Of a stretch of DNA of 8,951 bases, positions 937-5,770 are shown piece by piece. Location: IMG/VR virus record IMGVR_UViG_3300029107_000009, positions 1 through 8,951 of that record, one strand, 5' to 3'. Position 1 is the stretch's first letter. Each line of letters starts with the position of its first letter. Under the pieces are notes generated by a model. The model made no database searches. It was not told the DNA's origin and saw only the letters and a list, made by a program, of their open reading frames with translations. A program made the position numbers and the translations under genes. The stretch comes from a virus (taxonomy: Duplodnaviria > Heunggongvirae > Uroviricota > Caudoviricetes).

Positions 937-1105
937 TTTTGGTTCAACTAAATACAACGTCAGTTTTGAAGAATGGCATGAACTGTTAATGGATTATGCA
1001 GAGTTACGTGGTGGAAGTGCTGCTGATGCTGAAGCCTGGCGTGATGACTACGAAGCAGGAAAAACACCTGTCGAAGCATATTGTGATGAGTGGGGCGATG
1101 AATGA
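929..1105 (+). CDS. Small acidic protein (58 aa)
   Basis: ATG 929 preceded by GAGGAGGA (913-920). Acidic, Trp-containing product MADFGSTKYNVSFEEWHELLMDYAELRGGSAADAEAWRDDYEAGKTPVEAYCDEWGDE. Start overlaps the stop of the preceding acidic frame. Confidence 0.5.
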   Translation: MADFGSTKYNVSFEEWHELLMDYAELRGGSAADAEAWRDDYEAGKTPVEAYCDEWGDE

Positions 1106-1209
1106 GCGAGATTAATTATCAGGAAGGGCATGAAACGGTAGGGCAGGCAAAACCAGTTGCATGACGATATCGCTATGTGAAAAAGGGCGTTACGGACCTT
1201 CAGGAGAAG

Positions 1210-1617
1210 ATGTGGGTTGGTGACTGGAAATATGTACCGACAAAAGAGGATTGCAACGACAGGCCGAGCTATGAGATTCAGGCCTTATTCACTACCCCGC
1301 CAGTCCCGGTGATATCAGAAGGACTGGTTAAAGCCGCGCGCTTTTATGAACAGGTAAAGCGTGAGAATCCACCAGTCGAAACAGGAGTATGGAAAGATGC
1401 TGTTGATTGGGTTCTCAAAGAGGCCTGCTGTGCTGTCATTCTGGGTAAAGCCGACAATCCATTAGCATCCAGTAACCAAGTTGGCGAATTAACAATGTGG
1501 GTTAAACGACAGGTCAGTCAACTGAAAAAAGCTAATCCAGACTGCAAATTACCGGAGAAGGCGATGGACTACCTTAAGCGGAACGAACTGATAAGCGCGG
1601 AGGATGTTTTGCGATGA
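1210..1617 (+). CDS. Hypothetical protein (135 aa from ATG 1210; 146 aa if the GTG at 1177 is used)
   Basis: Long ORF in the supplied track (1177..1617). ATG 1210 has AGGAG 3 nt upstream; GTG 1177 has no obvious SD. Soluble-looking product with no motif I recognise. Stop TGA overlaps the ATG of the following peptide gene (ATGA). Confidence 0.6.
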   Translation: MWVGDWKYVPTKEDCNDRPSYEIQALFTTPPVPVISEGLVKAARFYEQVKRENPPVETGVWKDAVDWVLKEACCAVILGKADNPLASSNQVGELTMWVKRQVSQLKKANPDCKLPEKAMDYLKRNELISAEDVLR

Positions 1618-1697
1618 CCTGGCCTGAAGCATTCACAACGGTAGGAATTGCAATGGCGGTGGCGCTGGTGGTGTATTCGATTTGCCGCTGGGGGTAA
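1614..1697 (+). CDS. Small hydrophobic single-TM peptide (27 aa)
   Basis: ATG 1614 preceded by GGAGGA (1599-1604) at 9 nt; ATGA overlap with the upstream ORF. Product MTWPEAFTTVGIAMAVALVVYSICRWG is a single hydrophobic helix. Confidence 0.45.
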   Translation: MTWPEAFTTVGIAMAVALVVYSICRWG

Positions 1698-1858
1698 GGT
1701 ATTAAAAAACGCCCCGCACACAGACGTTGAGCGCCTGAGATGTGGGGATAGGGAGTTAGTTAAATAGTCGTACAACAATACCTGATTTTATATTGAAGCA
1801 AGAAATAGGTTGCTACATATTGAACCATGCGCGTGTACGTCAAATATGGGAGGTCATC

Positions 1859-1948
1859 GTGCTGGTTCTGAAATGTGCGCTGGCTATTGCGGCAGTAATG
1901 GCAATTTATTGTCTTGTTATCGTTCTTATGAATCACCTTTCTGATTAA
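1859..1948 (+). CDS. Small hydrophobic peptide (29 aa), candidate membrane peptide or type I toxin-like
   Basis: GTG 1859 with strong SD GGGAGG (1848-1853) at 5 nt. Product MLVLKCALAIAAVMAIYCLVIVLMNHLSD. Candidate promoter TTGAAG (1793-1798) / CATATT (1816-1821) with a 17-nt spacer. Below the size cutoff of the ORF track. Confidence 0.4.
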   Translation: MLVLKCALAIAAVMAIYCLVIVLMNHLSD

Positions 1949-1955
1949 TTTTATA

Positions 1956-1984
1956 TTGGCGAGGTGACGTGAGTTAAGTAGAAT
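1956..1984 (+). promoter_or_regulatory. Candidate sigma70 promoter of the hok-type mRNA
   Basis: -35 TTGGCG (1956-1961), 17-nt spacer, -10 TAGAAT (1979-1984). The predicted start near 1991 places the complementary box at the 5' end of the transcript. Confidence 0.4.
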
Positions 1985-1988
1985 TGCT

Positions 1989-2002
1989 GCGGGTGCTTGA
2001 GG
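1989..2002 (+). promoter_or_regulatory. Upstream complementary box of the hok mRNA (fold-back inhibition element, 5' partner)
   Basis: GCGGGTGCTTGAGG (1989-2002) can pair antiparallel with CCTCAACGCACCCGC (2365-2379) just before the 3' terminator: 14 bp with a one-nucleotide bulge. Confidence 0.5.
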
Positions 2003-2037
2003 CTATCTGCCTCGGGCATGAACACCAACGGCAGATA

Positions 2038-2111
2038 GAGAAAAGCCCCAGTTAACATTACGCGTCCTGCAAGACGCTTAACATTAATCTGAGGCCCAAT
2101 CTATGCTTCAC
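2038..2111 (-). ncRNA. Candidate Sok-like antisense RNA (boundaries approximate)
   Basis: Minus-strand -35 TTGCCT (forward 2141-2146) and -10 TAACCT (forward 2118-2123) with a 17-nt spacer. The transcript would be antisense to the mok start codon (2103) and its SD. On the minus strand an outer 7-bp stem (forward 2045-2051 with 2089-2095, one G-U pair that is a C-A mismatch on the plus strand) encloses an inner hairpin (forward 2062-2077) and is followed by UUUUCUC. Confidence 0.3.
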
Positions 2112-2315
2112 AAACGTAGGTTAGCCTCTTACGTGCCGAAAGGCAAGGAGAAGCAGGCTATGAAGCAGCAAAAGGCGATGTTAATCGCCCTGATCGTCAT
2201 CTGTTTAACCGTCATAGTGACGGCACTGGTAACGAGGAAAGACCTCTGCGAGGTACGAATCCGAACCGGCCAGACGGAGGTCGCTGTCTTCACAGCTTAC
2301 GAACCTGAGGAGTAA
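2103..2315 (+). CDS. Mok-like ORF: in-frame 19-codon N-terminal extension of hok
   Basis: 70-aa ORF MLHKRRLASYVPKGKEKQA + Hok sequence, in frame with hokD as in chromosomal mok/hok annotations; GAGG lies 10 nt upstream of ATG 2103. Confidence 0.45.
   Translation: MLHKRRLASYVPKGKEKQAMKQQKAMLIALIVICLTVIVTALVTRKDLCEVRIRTGQTEVAVFTAYEPEE
2160..2315 (+). CDS. hokD: Hok-family type I toxin (HokD/RelF-like, 51 aa)
   Basis: Product MKQQKAMLIALIVICLTVIVTALVTRKDLCEVRIRTGQTEVAVFTAYEPEE matches the Hok/Gef family and my recollection of E. coli HokD (RelF). SD AAGGAG at 9 nt; N-terminal TM helix and conserved Cys. Confidence 0.9.
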   Translation: MKQQKAMLIALIVICLTVIVTALVTRKDLCEVRIRTGQTEVAVFTAYEPEE

Positions 2316-2379: not shown

Positions 2380-2384
2380 ACTTA

Positions 2385-2410
2385 ACCCGCTTCGGCGGGT
2401 TTTTGTTTTT
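2385..2410 (+). terminator. Rho-independent terminator of the hok transcript
   Basis: ACCCGC-TTCG-GCGGGT stem-loop followed by TTTTTGTTTTT. Confidence 0.8.
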
Positions 2411-5460: not shown

Positions 5461-5536
5461 GGCCCTTTAGCTCAGTGGTGAGAGCGAGCGACTCATAATC
5501 GCCAGGTCGCTGGTTCAAATCCAGCAAGGGCCACCA
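5461..5536 (+). tRNA. tRNA with CAU anticodon, ileX/ileZ-like (Ile2 type after lysidine modification, or elongator Met)
   Basis: 76 nt; acceptor GGCCCTT/AAGGGCC; D-arm GCTCAGTGGTGAGAGC; anticodon loop CTCATAA; T-loop TTCAAAT; encoded CCA. Resembles E. coli ileX from memory. Confidence 0.8.
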
Positions 5537-5537
5537 A

Positions 5538-5614
5538 CCGCCACTAGCTCATCAGGAAAGAGCGTCAACCCTTTAAGTTGAGTGTGCGAGGTTCGAGTCC
5601 CCGGTGGCGGTCCA
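5538..5614 (+). tRNA. tRNA-like gene with atypical anticodon loop CCTTTAA (anticodon UUU if canonically numbered, but C at position 33)
   Basis: 77 nt; acceptor CCGCCAC/GTGGCGG; anticodon stem TCAAC/GTTGA; T-loop TTCGAGT with one A-C mismatch in the T-stem; encoded CCA. Confidence 0.55.
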
Positions 5615-5616
5615 GT

Positions 5617-5692
<76 letters not shown>

Positions 5693-5695
5693 TAT

Positions 5696-5770
<75 letters not shown>

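What the first reader, a model, noticed from the sequence alone, without database searches (positions are those of the whole stretch)
1614..1948. Two further short hydrophobic peptides with good ribosome-binding sites next to the hok locus
A 27-aa peptide (1614-1697, MTWPEAFTTVGIAMAVALVVYSICRWG) is ATGA-coupled to the unknown upstream protein. A 29-aa peptide (1859-1948, MLVLKCALAIAAVMAIYCLVIVLMNHLSD) has a near-ideal SD (GGGAGG at 5 nt). Both are single hydrophobic helices in the size range of membrane-active type I toxins or small membrane regulators, and both are too short for standard ORF callers. Three short membrane peptides within 700 bp (these two plus Hok) is unusual. The upstream protein plus the 27-aa peptide could form a two-gene module, for example an abortive-infection or lysis-control pair.
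Basis: seen in the sequence. Interest (0 to 1): 0.65.

Follow-up and report, generated by a model that had tools for sequence, protein, structure and literature searches.

The report
Two conserved unannotated prophage membrane micro-genes
Both short hydrophobic reading frames beside the hok toxin gene are very likely real genes for tiny membrane proteins, kept intact across many E. coli and Shigella prophages, Shiga-toxin phages and plasmids but missed by standard annotation, and their function is still unknown.

Summary
They are the two most hydrophobic of 224 short ORFs in the window.

Both behave as protein-coding genes.
- A: 145 of 153 copies intact, dN/dS about 0.17 against a clade at 71% nucleotide identity, substitutions by codon position 49/45/124.
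- B: 127 of 127 copies intact, positions 38/19/80, with diverged 29-34 aa relatives.

Neither matches Pfam, NCBIfam, PHROGs or PADLOC, and RefSeq annotates neither.

- A is not paired with this upstream protein. It is the translationally coupled last cistron behind at least three unrelated Ea-type genes, including in Stx phages 933W and BP-4795 and in P1-like plasmids, often without hok.
- B is a separate micro-gene with an invariant -10-like CATATT. About 90% of copies sit just upstream of the hok promoter, but it survives without hok, for example on Shigella pINV upstream of icsP.
- A type I toxin reading lacks support, because no conserved antisense promoter was found.

Function is inferred only: small inner-membrane modulators expressed with Hok on induction.

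The parts
1102..1617 (+). Upstream Ea-type accessory gene (phrog_660-like, function unknown). It is interrupted by TGA at 1162-1164 in this window, with a possible restart at GTG 1177.
   Evidence: the SMS-3-5 homologue WP_001289982.1 is 171 aa and uninterrupted; the window has W21 changed to a stop.
1599..1604 (+). Shine-Dalgarno-like GGAGGA for ORF A, lying inside the 3' end of the upstream gene.
   Evidence: An SD-like motif is present upstream of all 153 A copies examined.
1614..1697 (+). ORF A: 27-aa micro-protein MTWPEAFTTVGIAMAVALVVYSICRWG, ATGA-coupled, the last cistron of the Ea-type gene block.
   Evidence: 145 of 153 copies intact; dN/dS 0.17 against the A' clade; codon-position changes 49/45/124; 151 of 153 copies have the xTGA overlap.
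1704..1747 (-). Terminator-like hairpin (CCCCGCACA...TGTGGGG) whose T-run lies on the minus strand. It marks a module boundary between A and B.
   Evidence: In other loci A is followed directly by other terminator-like GC-rich hairpins, several flanked by A- and T-runs (read by eye, not scanned).
1793..1821 (+). Promoter-like element for B: -35 TTGAAG (1793-1798), 17-nt spacer, -10 CATATT (1816-1821).
   Evidence: CATATT is invariant in 49 unique upstream sequences while the spacer and -35 vary. In L003 and L004 the upstream neighbour is divergently oriented, so B needs its own promoter there. At 8 of 12 consensus matches (my count) it falls below the 9-of-12 threshold of the scan.
1833..1841 (+). 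Conserved 5'-UTR motif GTGTACGTC upstream of B's SD, function unknown.
   Evidence: BLAST homology with the common B module starts here.
1848..1853 (+). Shine-Dalgarno GGGAGG for B, 5 nt before the GTG.
   Evidence: It is AGGAGG in most relatives.
1859..1948 (+). ORF B: 29-aa micro-protein (M)LVLKCALAIAAVMAIYCLVIVLMNHLSD, GTG start.
   Evidence: 127 of 127 copies intact; codon-position changes 38/19/80; diverged homologues of 29-34 aa. The antisense 58-aa ORF is not conserved.
1956..1984 (+). hok promoter-like site (TTGGCG, 17 nt, TAGAAT), starting 8 nt after B's stop codon.
   Evidence: The distance from B's stop to the -10 region is 29 nt in nearly all B copies.
1991..2165 (+). hok mRNA leader and sok region (Rfam RF01794).
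   Evidence: 113 bits, E = 8.6e-26.
2103..2315 (+). mok (2103-2315) and hok (2160-2315), a HokD/HokW-type toxin.
   Evidence: PF01848, E = 3e-23.
2384..2401 (+). Intrinsic terminator of the hok transcript. No other convincing terminator lies between B and this point; the scan's only other plus-strand site is a weak hairpin inside the B ORF (1883-1902).

Best explanation
A and B are two distinct, genuine protein-coding micro-genes of temperate enterobacterial phages. Each encodes a peptide that is little more than one hydrophobic helix and most likely sits in the inner membrane.

A (27-28 aa; signature M-x-WPEAF, then a G/A-rich helix, then Y-x-I-C-R-W-G):
- It is the translationally coupled last cistron of the Ea-type early-accessory gene block (ead/Ea22, DUF551, eaa).
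- It is made when that block is transcribed from the early promoters after infection or induction.
- It belongs to that block, not to the particular upstream protein in this window and not to hok.

B (29-34 aa; signature ALA-x-x-AV-x-x-IYCL-x-x-x-LM-D/E-R-L-S-D):
- It is a separate micro-gene with its own strong SD and, in this window, its own promoter-like element (1793-1821).
- It sits immediately upstream of the hok promoter with no convincing terminator in between, so its transcript should run on into hok.

Shown here: the ORFs, their signals, their conservation as coding sequence, their genomic contexts and their absence from curated families.

Inferred, not shown: translation, membrane insertion and function.

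My best functional guess is that both act by helix-helix contact with a membrane partner. On this guess they tune membrane state or lysis timing in induced cells together with Hok. HokW was reported to assist lysis and phage release after induction of prophage Sp5 (PMC8621323).

The confidence given (0.75) is for the claim that both are real, conserved small membrane-protein genes with the contexts described. The functional guess on its own I would put at about 0.2-0.3.
For: Coding signature of A:
- 153 copies and 66 unique sequences; 145 copies intact.
- The diverged A' clade (MNWPEAFAITGVAMAIAFLVYVICRWG) has 71% nucleotide identity but the same start, stop and length.
- NG86 dN/dS is 0.228/1.331, about 0.17. 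pN/pS is 0.32 in frame against 0.72 and 2.1 in the other two frames.
- Minimum-spanning-tree nucleotide changes by codon position are 49/45/124, p = 1.5e-12.
- An SD-like motif is present in 153 of 153 copies and the xTGA overlap in 151 of 153, behind several unrelated upstream genes.
- Further members are in 933W (MTWPEAFANVGTVMAVVLVVYSICRWR) and BP-4795 (MMNWPEAF..., which keeps ATGA by adding a codon), and in IncY P1-like plasmids.

Coding signature of B:
- 127 copies and 36 unique sequences, all intact. Codon positions are 38/19/80, p = 5e-10.
- B' (MSDDISLAMEGALAVIAVVGVYCLVVFLMDRLGN) has 60% nucleotide and about 50% amino-acid identity, with the stop in register. dN/dS is 0.27-0.40.
- More diverged members keep the core with many synonymous changes: P0068 (its DNA read at locus L248), P0070 (protein only) and the pINV copy, which has an ATG start.
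- The antisense ORF is broken in many variants.
- The -10-like CATATT is invariant in 49 unique upstream sequences.
- Hok lies within 700 nt downstream in 48 of 53 loci fetched independently of hok.
- B survives without hok in L183, L197 and pINV.

Hydrophobicity: A and B are the top 2 of 224 short ORFs in the window.

Both have been called 'membrane protein', 'bacteriophage protein' or 'hypothetical' in some GenBank records.

Context: HokW acts in lysis after induction (PMC8621323).
Against: - There is no direct evidence of translation. The supplementary files of the O157:H7 Sakai Ribo-seq small-gene study (PMC5597208) do not contain either peptide string. That study used uninduced cultures, and these are repeated prophage sequences.
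- 8 of 153 A copies are broken. These include three independent stop mutations at Trp3, one stop at Trp26 and a 1-nt deletion after the ATG.
- Some loci were fetched with patterns that require parts of the ORFs. This inflates the intact fractions. The hok-anchored, ORF-blind sample still gave about 64 of 70 A copies intact and about 20 of 20 readable B copies intact.
- B uses GTG, and its SD is weak in one lineage (AGAAGA in L197). A's SD is weaker in 933W (AGAAGG).
- Distribution is narrow. A scan of GTDB species representatives found A only in E. coli and S. flexneri. A profile search of 1.84 billion proteins found 15 B hits.
- Codon-position patterns in very hydrophobic ORFs can be partly compositional.
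- The functional link to Hok rests on adjacency only. B exists without hok, and hok exists widely without B or A.
Confidence: 0.75

Rival explanations
1. B (and perhaps A) is a new type I toxin. On this reading it is a membrane-depolarising peptide whose translation is held in check by a cis-antisense RNA, making a second toxin-antitoxin locus next to hok/sok.
For: - B is short and very hydrophobic, and has its own promoter-like element and a strong SD.
- In the window a minus-strand promoter-like site (TTAACT, 18 nt, TAAAAT; 1977-1948) and a minus-strand terminator-like hairpin (1728-1708) would frame an antisense RNA of about 235 nt covering B and its SD.
- Recurrent stop mutations at Trp3 of A could reflect counter-selection of a toxic product.
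Against: - The antisense -10 is not conserved: TAAAAT becomes TGAAAT in many variants.
- The minus-strand terminator is present only in the window-type module.
- B' follows A' after 25 nt, with no room for its own promoter or an antisense unit, and it is net acidic. By my recollection most membrane type I toxins are cationic.
- B mRNA and antisense folds are not unusually stable (z = -0.46 and -1.61).
- No Rfam hit falls in 1698-1990 apart from one weak minus-strand sok match (16.2 bits against a gathering score of 59, E 0.47) at 1913-2049.
- No toxin family matches.
- A is an operon-internal coupled cistron.
Confidence: 0.12
2. B is a cis-acting leader or upstream ORF of hok. On this reading its translation or transcription, not its peptide, sets how much read-through transcript enters hok or interferes with the hok and sok promoters.
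For: - The distance between B's stop and the hok promoter is fixed: 8 nt to the -35, and 29 nt to the -10 region in nearly all copies.
- No convincing terminator lies between B and hok.
- At least 90% of B copies are linked to hok.
Against: - The amino-acid sequence itself is conserved through many synonymous changes.
- B stays intact where hok is deleted or absent (pINV, L183, L197).
- In B' loci a 22-nt palindrome is inserted between B' and hok, so the spacing is not fixed there.
Confidence: 0.1
3. One reading: the upstream 146-aa protein and the 27-aa peptide form a dedicated two-gene module, such as an abortive-infection or lysis-control pair.
For: - The ATGA overlap implies co-translation.
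- A is never found with a promoter of its own and always follows an Ea-type gene.
Against: - The partner is interchangeable: DUF551-type...EDILR-type and ...IEQEVNR-type C-termini, on proteins of 50 to 300 aa.
- The partner in this very window carries a premature stop.
- There are no defence-system hits.
Confidence: 0.07
4. One or both ORFs are not translated. On this reading the conservation reflects DNA- or RNA-level constraints near the hok promoter, or simply the recent common ancestry of prophage modules.
For: - Many copies are nearly identical E. coli prophage sequences.
- Taxonomic range is narrow.
- There is no proteomic or Ribo-seq evidence.
- RefSeq does not call them.
Against: - Third-position excess and low dN/dS are specific to the proposed frames.
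- Start, stop and length are preserved at 60-71% nucleotide identity.
- The SD is preserved behind unrelated upstream genes.
- A occurs far from hok (BP-4795, P1-like plasmids) and B occurs without hok.
Confidence: 0.08

Closest known systems
Hok/Gef family type I toxins (PF01848), including hokW-sokW of Stx prophage Sp5/933W
   Same: They are small hydrophobic inner-membrane peptides of the same prophages, and they are immediate neighbours. B's transcript should run into hok. HokW is reported to act in lysis after induction (PMC8621323).
   Different: There is no sequence relationship. A and B are half the size and lack the periplasmic Cys-containing domain. They have no mok-like coupling frame, no fold-back mRNA architecture and no demonstrated antisense RNA.
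Short membrane type I toxins of E. coli (IbsC, ShoB, TisB, DinQ, ZorO, Ldr); comparison drawn from my own knowledge
   Same: The size range (19-35 aa) and a single hydrophobic helix. B has its own promoter-like element.
   Different: No conserved antisense or divergent sRNA gene was found. B' is acidic. A is translationally coupled inside an operon. No toxicity data exist.
Small inner-membrane regulator proteins (MgrB, MgtS, AcrZ, KdpF, CydX, PmrR); comparison drawn from my own knowledge
   Same: They are proteins of under 50 aa with a single transmembrane helix, they were missed by annotation, and they act by binding larger membrane proteins. A carries small-residue spacing (G11xxxA15, A13xxxA17) of the kind used for helix packing. 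The only, sub-threshold, NCBIfam hit for A is KdpF (E 0.024).
   Different: No homology, no known partner, and phage-borne rather than chromosomal core genes.
Small accessory ORFs of the lambda and Stx-phage exo-xis / Ea region (ea22, ea8.5, orf60a, orf61, orf63, orf73)
   Same: A sits at the distal end of this early, non-essential block in 933W and BP-4795. Ea22 proteins are mosaic with swappable C-terminal domains, including DUF551 (PMC10834534), which matches the variable partners seen upstream of A.
   Different: From my own knowledge, the characterised exo-xis products are soluble proteins. A is a 27-aa hydrophobic peptide. The one exo-xis paper text-searched for small or hydrophobic ORFs (PMC10789677) returned no mention of one.

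Membership tests
Hok/Gef toxin family (PF01848) | Match to the Hok/Gef profile | tested here: not met
   only the 2103-2315 product matches (E 3e-23). A and B give no hit.
Type I toxin-antitoxin toxin | Small hydrophobic ORF with its own translation signals | tested here: met
   both are under 30 aa, rank top 2 of 224 for hydropathy, and have an SD.
Type I toxin-antitoxin toxin | Cognate antisense or divergent sRNA gene with a conserved promoter and terminator | tested here: not met
   One search finds a minus-strand promoter-like site and a terminator-like site in the window. The -10 is not conserved, the terminator is module-specific, B' has no room for such a unit, and Rfam finds nothing. 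A sequence-only test cannot exclude an unrecognised sRNA.
Type I toxin-antitoxin toxin | Toxicity on expression, relieved by the RNA antitoxin | not testable with these tools
   Needs inducible expression and growth or membrane-potential assays.
Bacterial/phage small membrane proteins (50 aa or fewer, single transmembrane helix) | Length of 50 aa or fewer with one hydrophobic segment long enough to span or embed in the membrane | tested here: met
   best 17-residue KD window is 2.11 for A and 2.92 for B (Hok 3.22). This is hydropathy only; no dedicated topology predictor was available.
Bacterial/phage small membrane proteins (50 aa or fewer, single transmembrane helix) | Evolutionary signature of protein coding | tested here: met
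   dN/dS 0.17 (A) and 0.27-0.40 (B), with third-position excess at p below 1e-9 for both.
Bacterial/phage small membrane proteins (50 aa or fewer, single transmembrane helix) | Demonstrated translation and membrane localisation | not testable with these tools
   No peptide string was found in the literature library or in the supplements of the Sakai Ribo-seq paper.
Translationally coupled operon-terminal cistron (for A) | Start codon overlapping the upstream stop, with an SD inside the upstream gene, conserved across contexts | tested here: met
   151 of 153 copies have the xTGA overlap and 153 of 153 have an SD-like motif. BP-4795 keeps ATGA by adding a codon.
Anti-phage defence / abortive-infection module | Match of the peptide or its neighbours to known defence-system proteins | tested here: not met
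   no PADLOC hit apart from one chance-level match.

The most novel reading that the evidence does not exclude
B, possibly together with A, is a dedicated membrane partner of Hok. This would be a third, protein-level component of prophage hok/sok loci, acting as an anti-Hok immunity peptide or as a co-factor, and setting when Hok permeabilises the membrane after induction. It would be analogous to an antiholin for a toxin co-opted into phage lysis.

Its survival on Shigella pINV upstream of icsP would then be either a relic or a second, hok-independent role.
Probability: 0.12. Interest if true: 0.75.

Novelty: new member of a known kind. Interest (0 to 1): 0.45.

Why it matters
If translated, these are two uncatalogued micro-protein families carried by thousands of E. 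coli and Shigella genomes. Carriers include Shiga-toxin phages 933W and VT2-Sakai (Sp5), P1-like plasmids and the Shigella virulence plasmid.

A lies in the exo-xis / Ea region, whose effects on the lysis-lysogeny decision of Stx phages are studied without this ORF being considered. It also lies directly beside hokW, whose deletion phenotype has been measured. Constructs and deletions in those studies may or may not include A.

B is the nearest neighbour of most prophage hokD-type loci. On pINV it sits inside the upstream region of icsP.

Both are cheap to test and would add to the short list of phage-encoded membrane micro-proteins. The finding also shows a systematic annotation gap, since ORFs of 84 and 90 nt are dropped by RefSeq.

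Tried and rejected
Searches that found nothing:
- Pfam, NCBIfam, PHROGs and PADLOC scans of A, B, A', B' and N-terminally extended B gave nothing above chance.
- Rfam at gathering and at relaxed thresholds found only sok and the tRNAs. Nothing fell in 1698-1990 except one weak sub-threshold minus-strand sok match at 1913-2049.
- Literature search for the peptide strings gave 0 papers. The supplements of the Sakai Ribo-seq small-gene paper gave 0 occurrences.
- A CFT073 Ribo-seq preprint was listed in the search results but could not be read.

- The search for related loci and the search for homologous proteins refuse queries under 40 aa. I worked round this with degenerate DNA patterns and a 42-aa extended B.

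Ideas considered and rejected:
- The 90% cluster that joins A to 121-aa DUF551 proteins is a clustering artefact. Those proteins end ...PPQEVNQ and do not contain the peptide, so there is no fusion.
- Frameshift fusion of A to the upstream protein: I saw no slippery heptamer in the sequences I read, and the open frame upstream of the ATG is short.
- The 58-aa antisense ORF (1760-1936, called in some phage annotations) as the real gene: it is broken in many variants.
- A LexA box in B's 5' region: none seen by eye.
- A lipoprotein signal in B: no lipobox.
- The RNA folds of B's mRNA and of the putative antisense RNA are not more stable than shuffles.
Full report
**The observation**

The window is the early region of a lambdoid E. 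coli prophage. It is 97% identical to a prophage of strain SMS-3-5. In order it carries:
- a DNA methyltransferase and several small Ea-type accessory genes;
- the two ORFs in question;
- hok/sok, then rem-like, DUF968, RusA and Q genes, and four tRNAs.

ORF A (1614-1697) reads MTWPEAFTTVGIAMAVALVVYSICRWG. Its ATG overlaps the upstream TGA as ATGA, and GGAGGA lies 10 nt upstream.

ORF B (1859-1948) reads (M)LVLKCALAIAAVMAIYCLVIVLMNHLSD. It starts with GTG, not ATG, and GGGAGG lies 5 nt upstream.

Among 224 start-to-stop ORFs of 20-40 aa in all six frames of the window, A and B are the two most hydrophobic. They are the only ones that combine an SD-like motif with a 17-residue hydropathy of at least 2.0.

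One detail was missed. The upstream gene carries a TGG-to-TGA change at 1162-1164 relative to its 171-aa SMS-3-5 homologue. It is therefore interrupted here.

**Sampling of relatives**

I fetched relatives in three ways.
- ORF-blind: 120 viral contigs anchored on the hok leader.
- ORF-anchored: degenerate patterns for A and for B.
- Annotated records of E. coli genomes, phages and plasmids.

The ORF-anchored sets are biased toward intact copies in the codons the pattern specifies. The hok-anchored set is not.

**A is a coding gene**

- In the hok-anchored set, 70 loci carry A in 33 nucleotide variants. Six copies are broken: stops at Trp3 arose three times, there is one stop at Trp26, and a 1-nt deletion occurs after the ATG in two copies.
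- Over all loci, 145 of 153 copies (66 unique sequences) are intact.
- A diverged clade, A' (MNWPEAFAITGVAMAIAFLVYVICRWG), is only 71% identical in DNA. It keeps the start, stop and length, and its changes are conservative or synonymous.
- NG86 gives dN 0.228 and dS 1.331, so dN/dS is about 0.17. pN/pS is 0.32 in frame against 0.72 and 2.1 in the other frames.
- Along a minimum spanning tree of the unique sequences, substitutions fall 49/45/124 on codon positions 1/2/3, p = 1.5e-12.

**Context of A**

A never stands alone. In 151 of 153 copies its start overlaps the stop of an upstream gene (xTGA), and an SD-like motif is always present inside that gene.

The upstream gene varies. About 75 copies end ...PLPEPPQEV(N/R)Q (DUF551 type), about 55 end ...RNGLISVEDILR (the type in this window) and 7 end ...NDLKNIEQEVNR. 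These C-termini sit on proteins of roughly 50 to 300 aa.

- In O157:H7 strain JEONG-1266, the same A (97.6% DNA identity) follows a DUF551 gene and is joined directly to hok.
- In Stx phage 933W, A (MTWPEAFANVGTVMAVVLVVYSICRWR) lies unannotated between ST933Wp77 and sokW/hokW, in the Ea22 region.
- In BP-4795, a 28-aa form (MMNWPEAF...) follows DUF551 ORF5 and precedes DUF4222-xis-int, with no hok. It keeps the ATGA overlap by adding a codon.
- On an IncY, P1-like plasmid of Salmonella, A follows an 'eaa' gene.

Downstream of A one finds any of the following:
- hok;
- B' followed by hok;
- the window-type spacer;
- in about half of the loci fetched independently of hok (24 of 48), no Hok ORF within 700 nt, and several of these hok-less loci show a terminator-like hairpin followed by a converging gene.

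A is therefore the coupled last cistron of the Ea-type accessory block. It is not the partner of this particular upstream protein and not a part of hok. Published work describes Ea22 proteins of Stx phages as mosaics with swappable C-terminal domains, including DUF551 (PMC10834534). That fits the variable partners.

**B is a coding gene**

- All 127 copies (36 unique sequences) are intact.
- Close variants differ mostly at third positions in the N-terminal half, and by V/A, I/V, M/T, N/D/E and H/R exchanges in the C-terminal half.
- A second subfamily, B' (MSDDISLAMEGALAVIAVVGVYCLVVFLMDRLGN, 34 aa, ATG start, SD AAGGAGG), lies 25 nt after A' and upstream of hok. It shares 60% DNA and about 50% protein identity with B, with the stop in register. 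dN/dS is 0.27-0.40.
- A profile search of 1.84 billion representative proteins returned only 15 hits. They include more diverged 29-36 aa members that keep ...AIYCLVVVLMDRLSD.
- One of these sits between an ORF6N gene and hok and carries many synonymous differences.
- Substitutions fall 38/19/80 by codon position, p = 5e-10.
- The 58-aa antisense ORF that some phage annotations call instead is broken in many variants.

**Context of B**

B's stop lies 8 nt before the hok -35. The distance to the -10 region is 29 nt in nearly all B copies and 61-63 nt in B' copies, where a 22-nt palindrome intervenes.

In loci fetched independently of hok, 48 of 53 have a Hok ORF within 700 nt. No convincing terminator separates B from hok.

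B also occurs without hok.
- In L183 and L197 it is followed by a converging gene.
- On the Shigella/EIEC virulence plasmid it is intact in at least the two copies read (pCP301 and one other), with an ATG start. There the hok promoter and about 80 nt of hok leader remain but hok is gone. The ORF lies about 290 nt upstream of icsP, and 138 plasmid records show this 60-80%-identity form of B.

Upstream of B a -10-like CATATT is invariant in 49 unique sequences, while the -35 and the spacer vary. Where the upstream neighbour is divergent (an AbiH-like gene in L003, a hypothetical gene in L004), B must have its own promoter. In B' loci and in L248 it is co-oriented with, and close behind, an upstream gene.

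**What they are not**

- Neither peptide matches Pfam, NCBIfam, PHROGs or PADLOC.
- RefSeq annotates neither. Some GenBank records call them 'bacteriophage protein', 'membrane protein' or 'hypothetical'.
- The apparent clustering of A with 121-aa DUF551 proteins is an artefact.
- A type I toxin reading of B has one attraction in the window: a minus-strand promoter-like site (1977-1948) and a terminator-like hairpin (1728-1708).
- That attraction does not hold up. The -10 is not conserved, the hairpin belongs only to the window-type spacer and B' has no room for such a unit. The folds are unremarkable and Rfam finds nothing significant.

**Mechanism**

Shown: both have the signals and the evolutionary signature of translated genes, and both are little more than one hydrophobic helix.

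Inferred: A is made with the early Ea transcripts after infection or induction. B is made from its own promoter and/or from read-through, on a transcript that continues into hok. Both insert in the inner membrane and act through helix-helix contacts.

HokW of Sp5 was reported to accumulate in the inner membrane after mitomycin C in a RecA-dependent way, and to double phage release (PMC8621323). My best guess is therefore that A and B modulate membrane state or lysis timing alongside Hok. This rests on adjacency only.

**Distribution and novelty**

- A occurs in E. coli and Shigella prophages, in 90 phage records including many Stx phages, and on about 180 plasmids. These plasmids are mostly non-mobilizable and about 90-100 kb, and the one inspected was IncY/P1-like. 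They come from E. coli, Salmonella and one Klebsiella.
- B was named only in Escherichia and Shigella sources, plus pINV.

They are new families of a known kind, phage-borne membrane micro-proteins. The interest is moderate: a clean annotation gap in medically important phages and plasmids, and a testable link to hok, but no function yet.

Noticed in passing
window 1162-1164 (gene 1102-1617): The Ea-type gene upstream of A carries TGG changed to TGA at codon 21, relative to the uninterrupted 171-aa homologue in SMS-3-5. It is a pseudogene or is re-initiated at GTG 1177. Translational coupling of A may therefore be weakened in this particular prophage.
   Followed up: partly
L251 1601-1690 (pCP301 NC_004851.1 219920-220006); 138 Shigella/EIEC plasmid records: A B-family ORF (MLVLKGTLAIAAVMTIYCLIVVLMERFSD, ATG start, AGGAGG SD, CATATT kept) is intact on the virulence plasmid pINV, about 290 nt upstream of icsP/sopA. 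It is followed by the hok promoter and only about 80 nt of hok leader. The region looks like a prophage relic inside the icsP upstream region.
   Followed up: partly
L249 2501-2584 (933W NC_000924.1 about 58826-58909): An unannotated A-family ORF lies between ST933Wp77 and sokW/hokW in Stx phage 933W. tblastn matches to the same ORF are also listed for VT2-Sakai (Sp5) and Min27, but I did not inspect those loci. In 933W it sits beside the locus whose deletion phenotype was published (PMC8621323).
   Followed up: partly
related loci, e.g. L028, L066 and others: The Trp3 codon of A was independently mutated to a stop (TAG, TGA, TAG) in three different sequence backgrounds. There is also one stop at Trp26. 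This could be ordinary decay, or counter-selection of the peptide.
   Followed up: no
L002 3585-3695 (phage vB_EcoS-689R5): The annotated 36-aa 'hypothetical protein' there is the out-of-frame reading of A after a 1-nt deletion right behind its ATG. This is either a frameshift or a sequencing error.
   Followed up: partly
related loci, e.g. L127, L043, L090, L106, L018 (upstream of hok): A perfect 22-nt palindrome, CCGATATGGGAATTCCCATATCGG, lies between B' and hok. It also lies upstream of hok in loci that lack both A and B. Its role is unknown; it could be a protein site, an RNA hairpin or a recombination joint.
   Followed up: no
window 1704-1747: A hairpin with its T-run on the minus strand lies directly after A. 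It looks like the terminator of a converging minus-strand unit, yet no conserved minus-strand gene lies between it and B. It may be a leftover of an earlier moron insertion.
   Followed up: partly
L007 and L010 (upstream of hok): B is truncated to its last six codons (MDHLSD*) by a junction with a QueH-like (DUF208) gene. This shows that module exchange can cut inside B.
   Followed up: no
window 1833-1841 and homologues: The motif GTRTACGTC in B's 5' UTR is conserved across diverged lineages, and BLAST homology of the common B module begins there. Its function is unknown.
   Followed up: no
window 5461-5767: A cluster of four tRNA genes lies here (Rfam). In the SMS-3-5 relative the equivalent cluster (Ile, Lys, Thr, Gly) lies downstream of the Q antiterminator homologue.
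   Followed up: no
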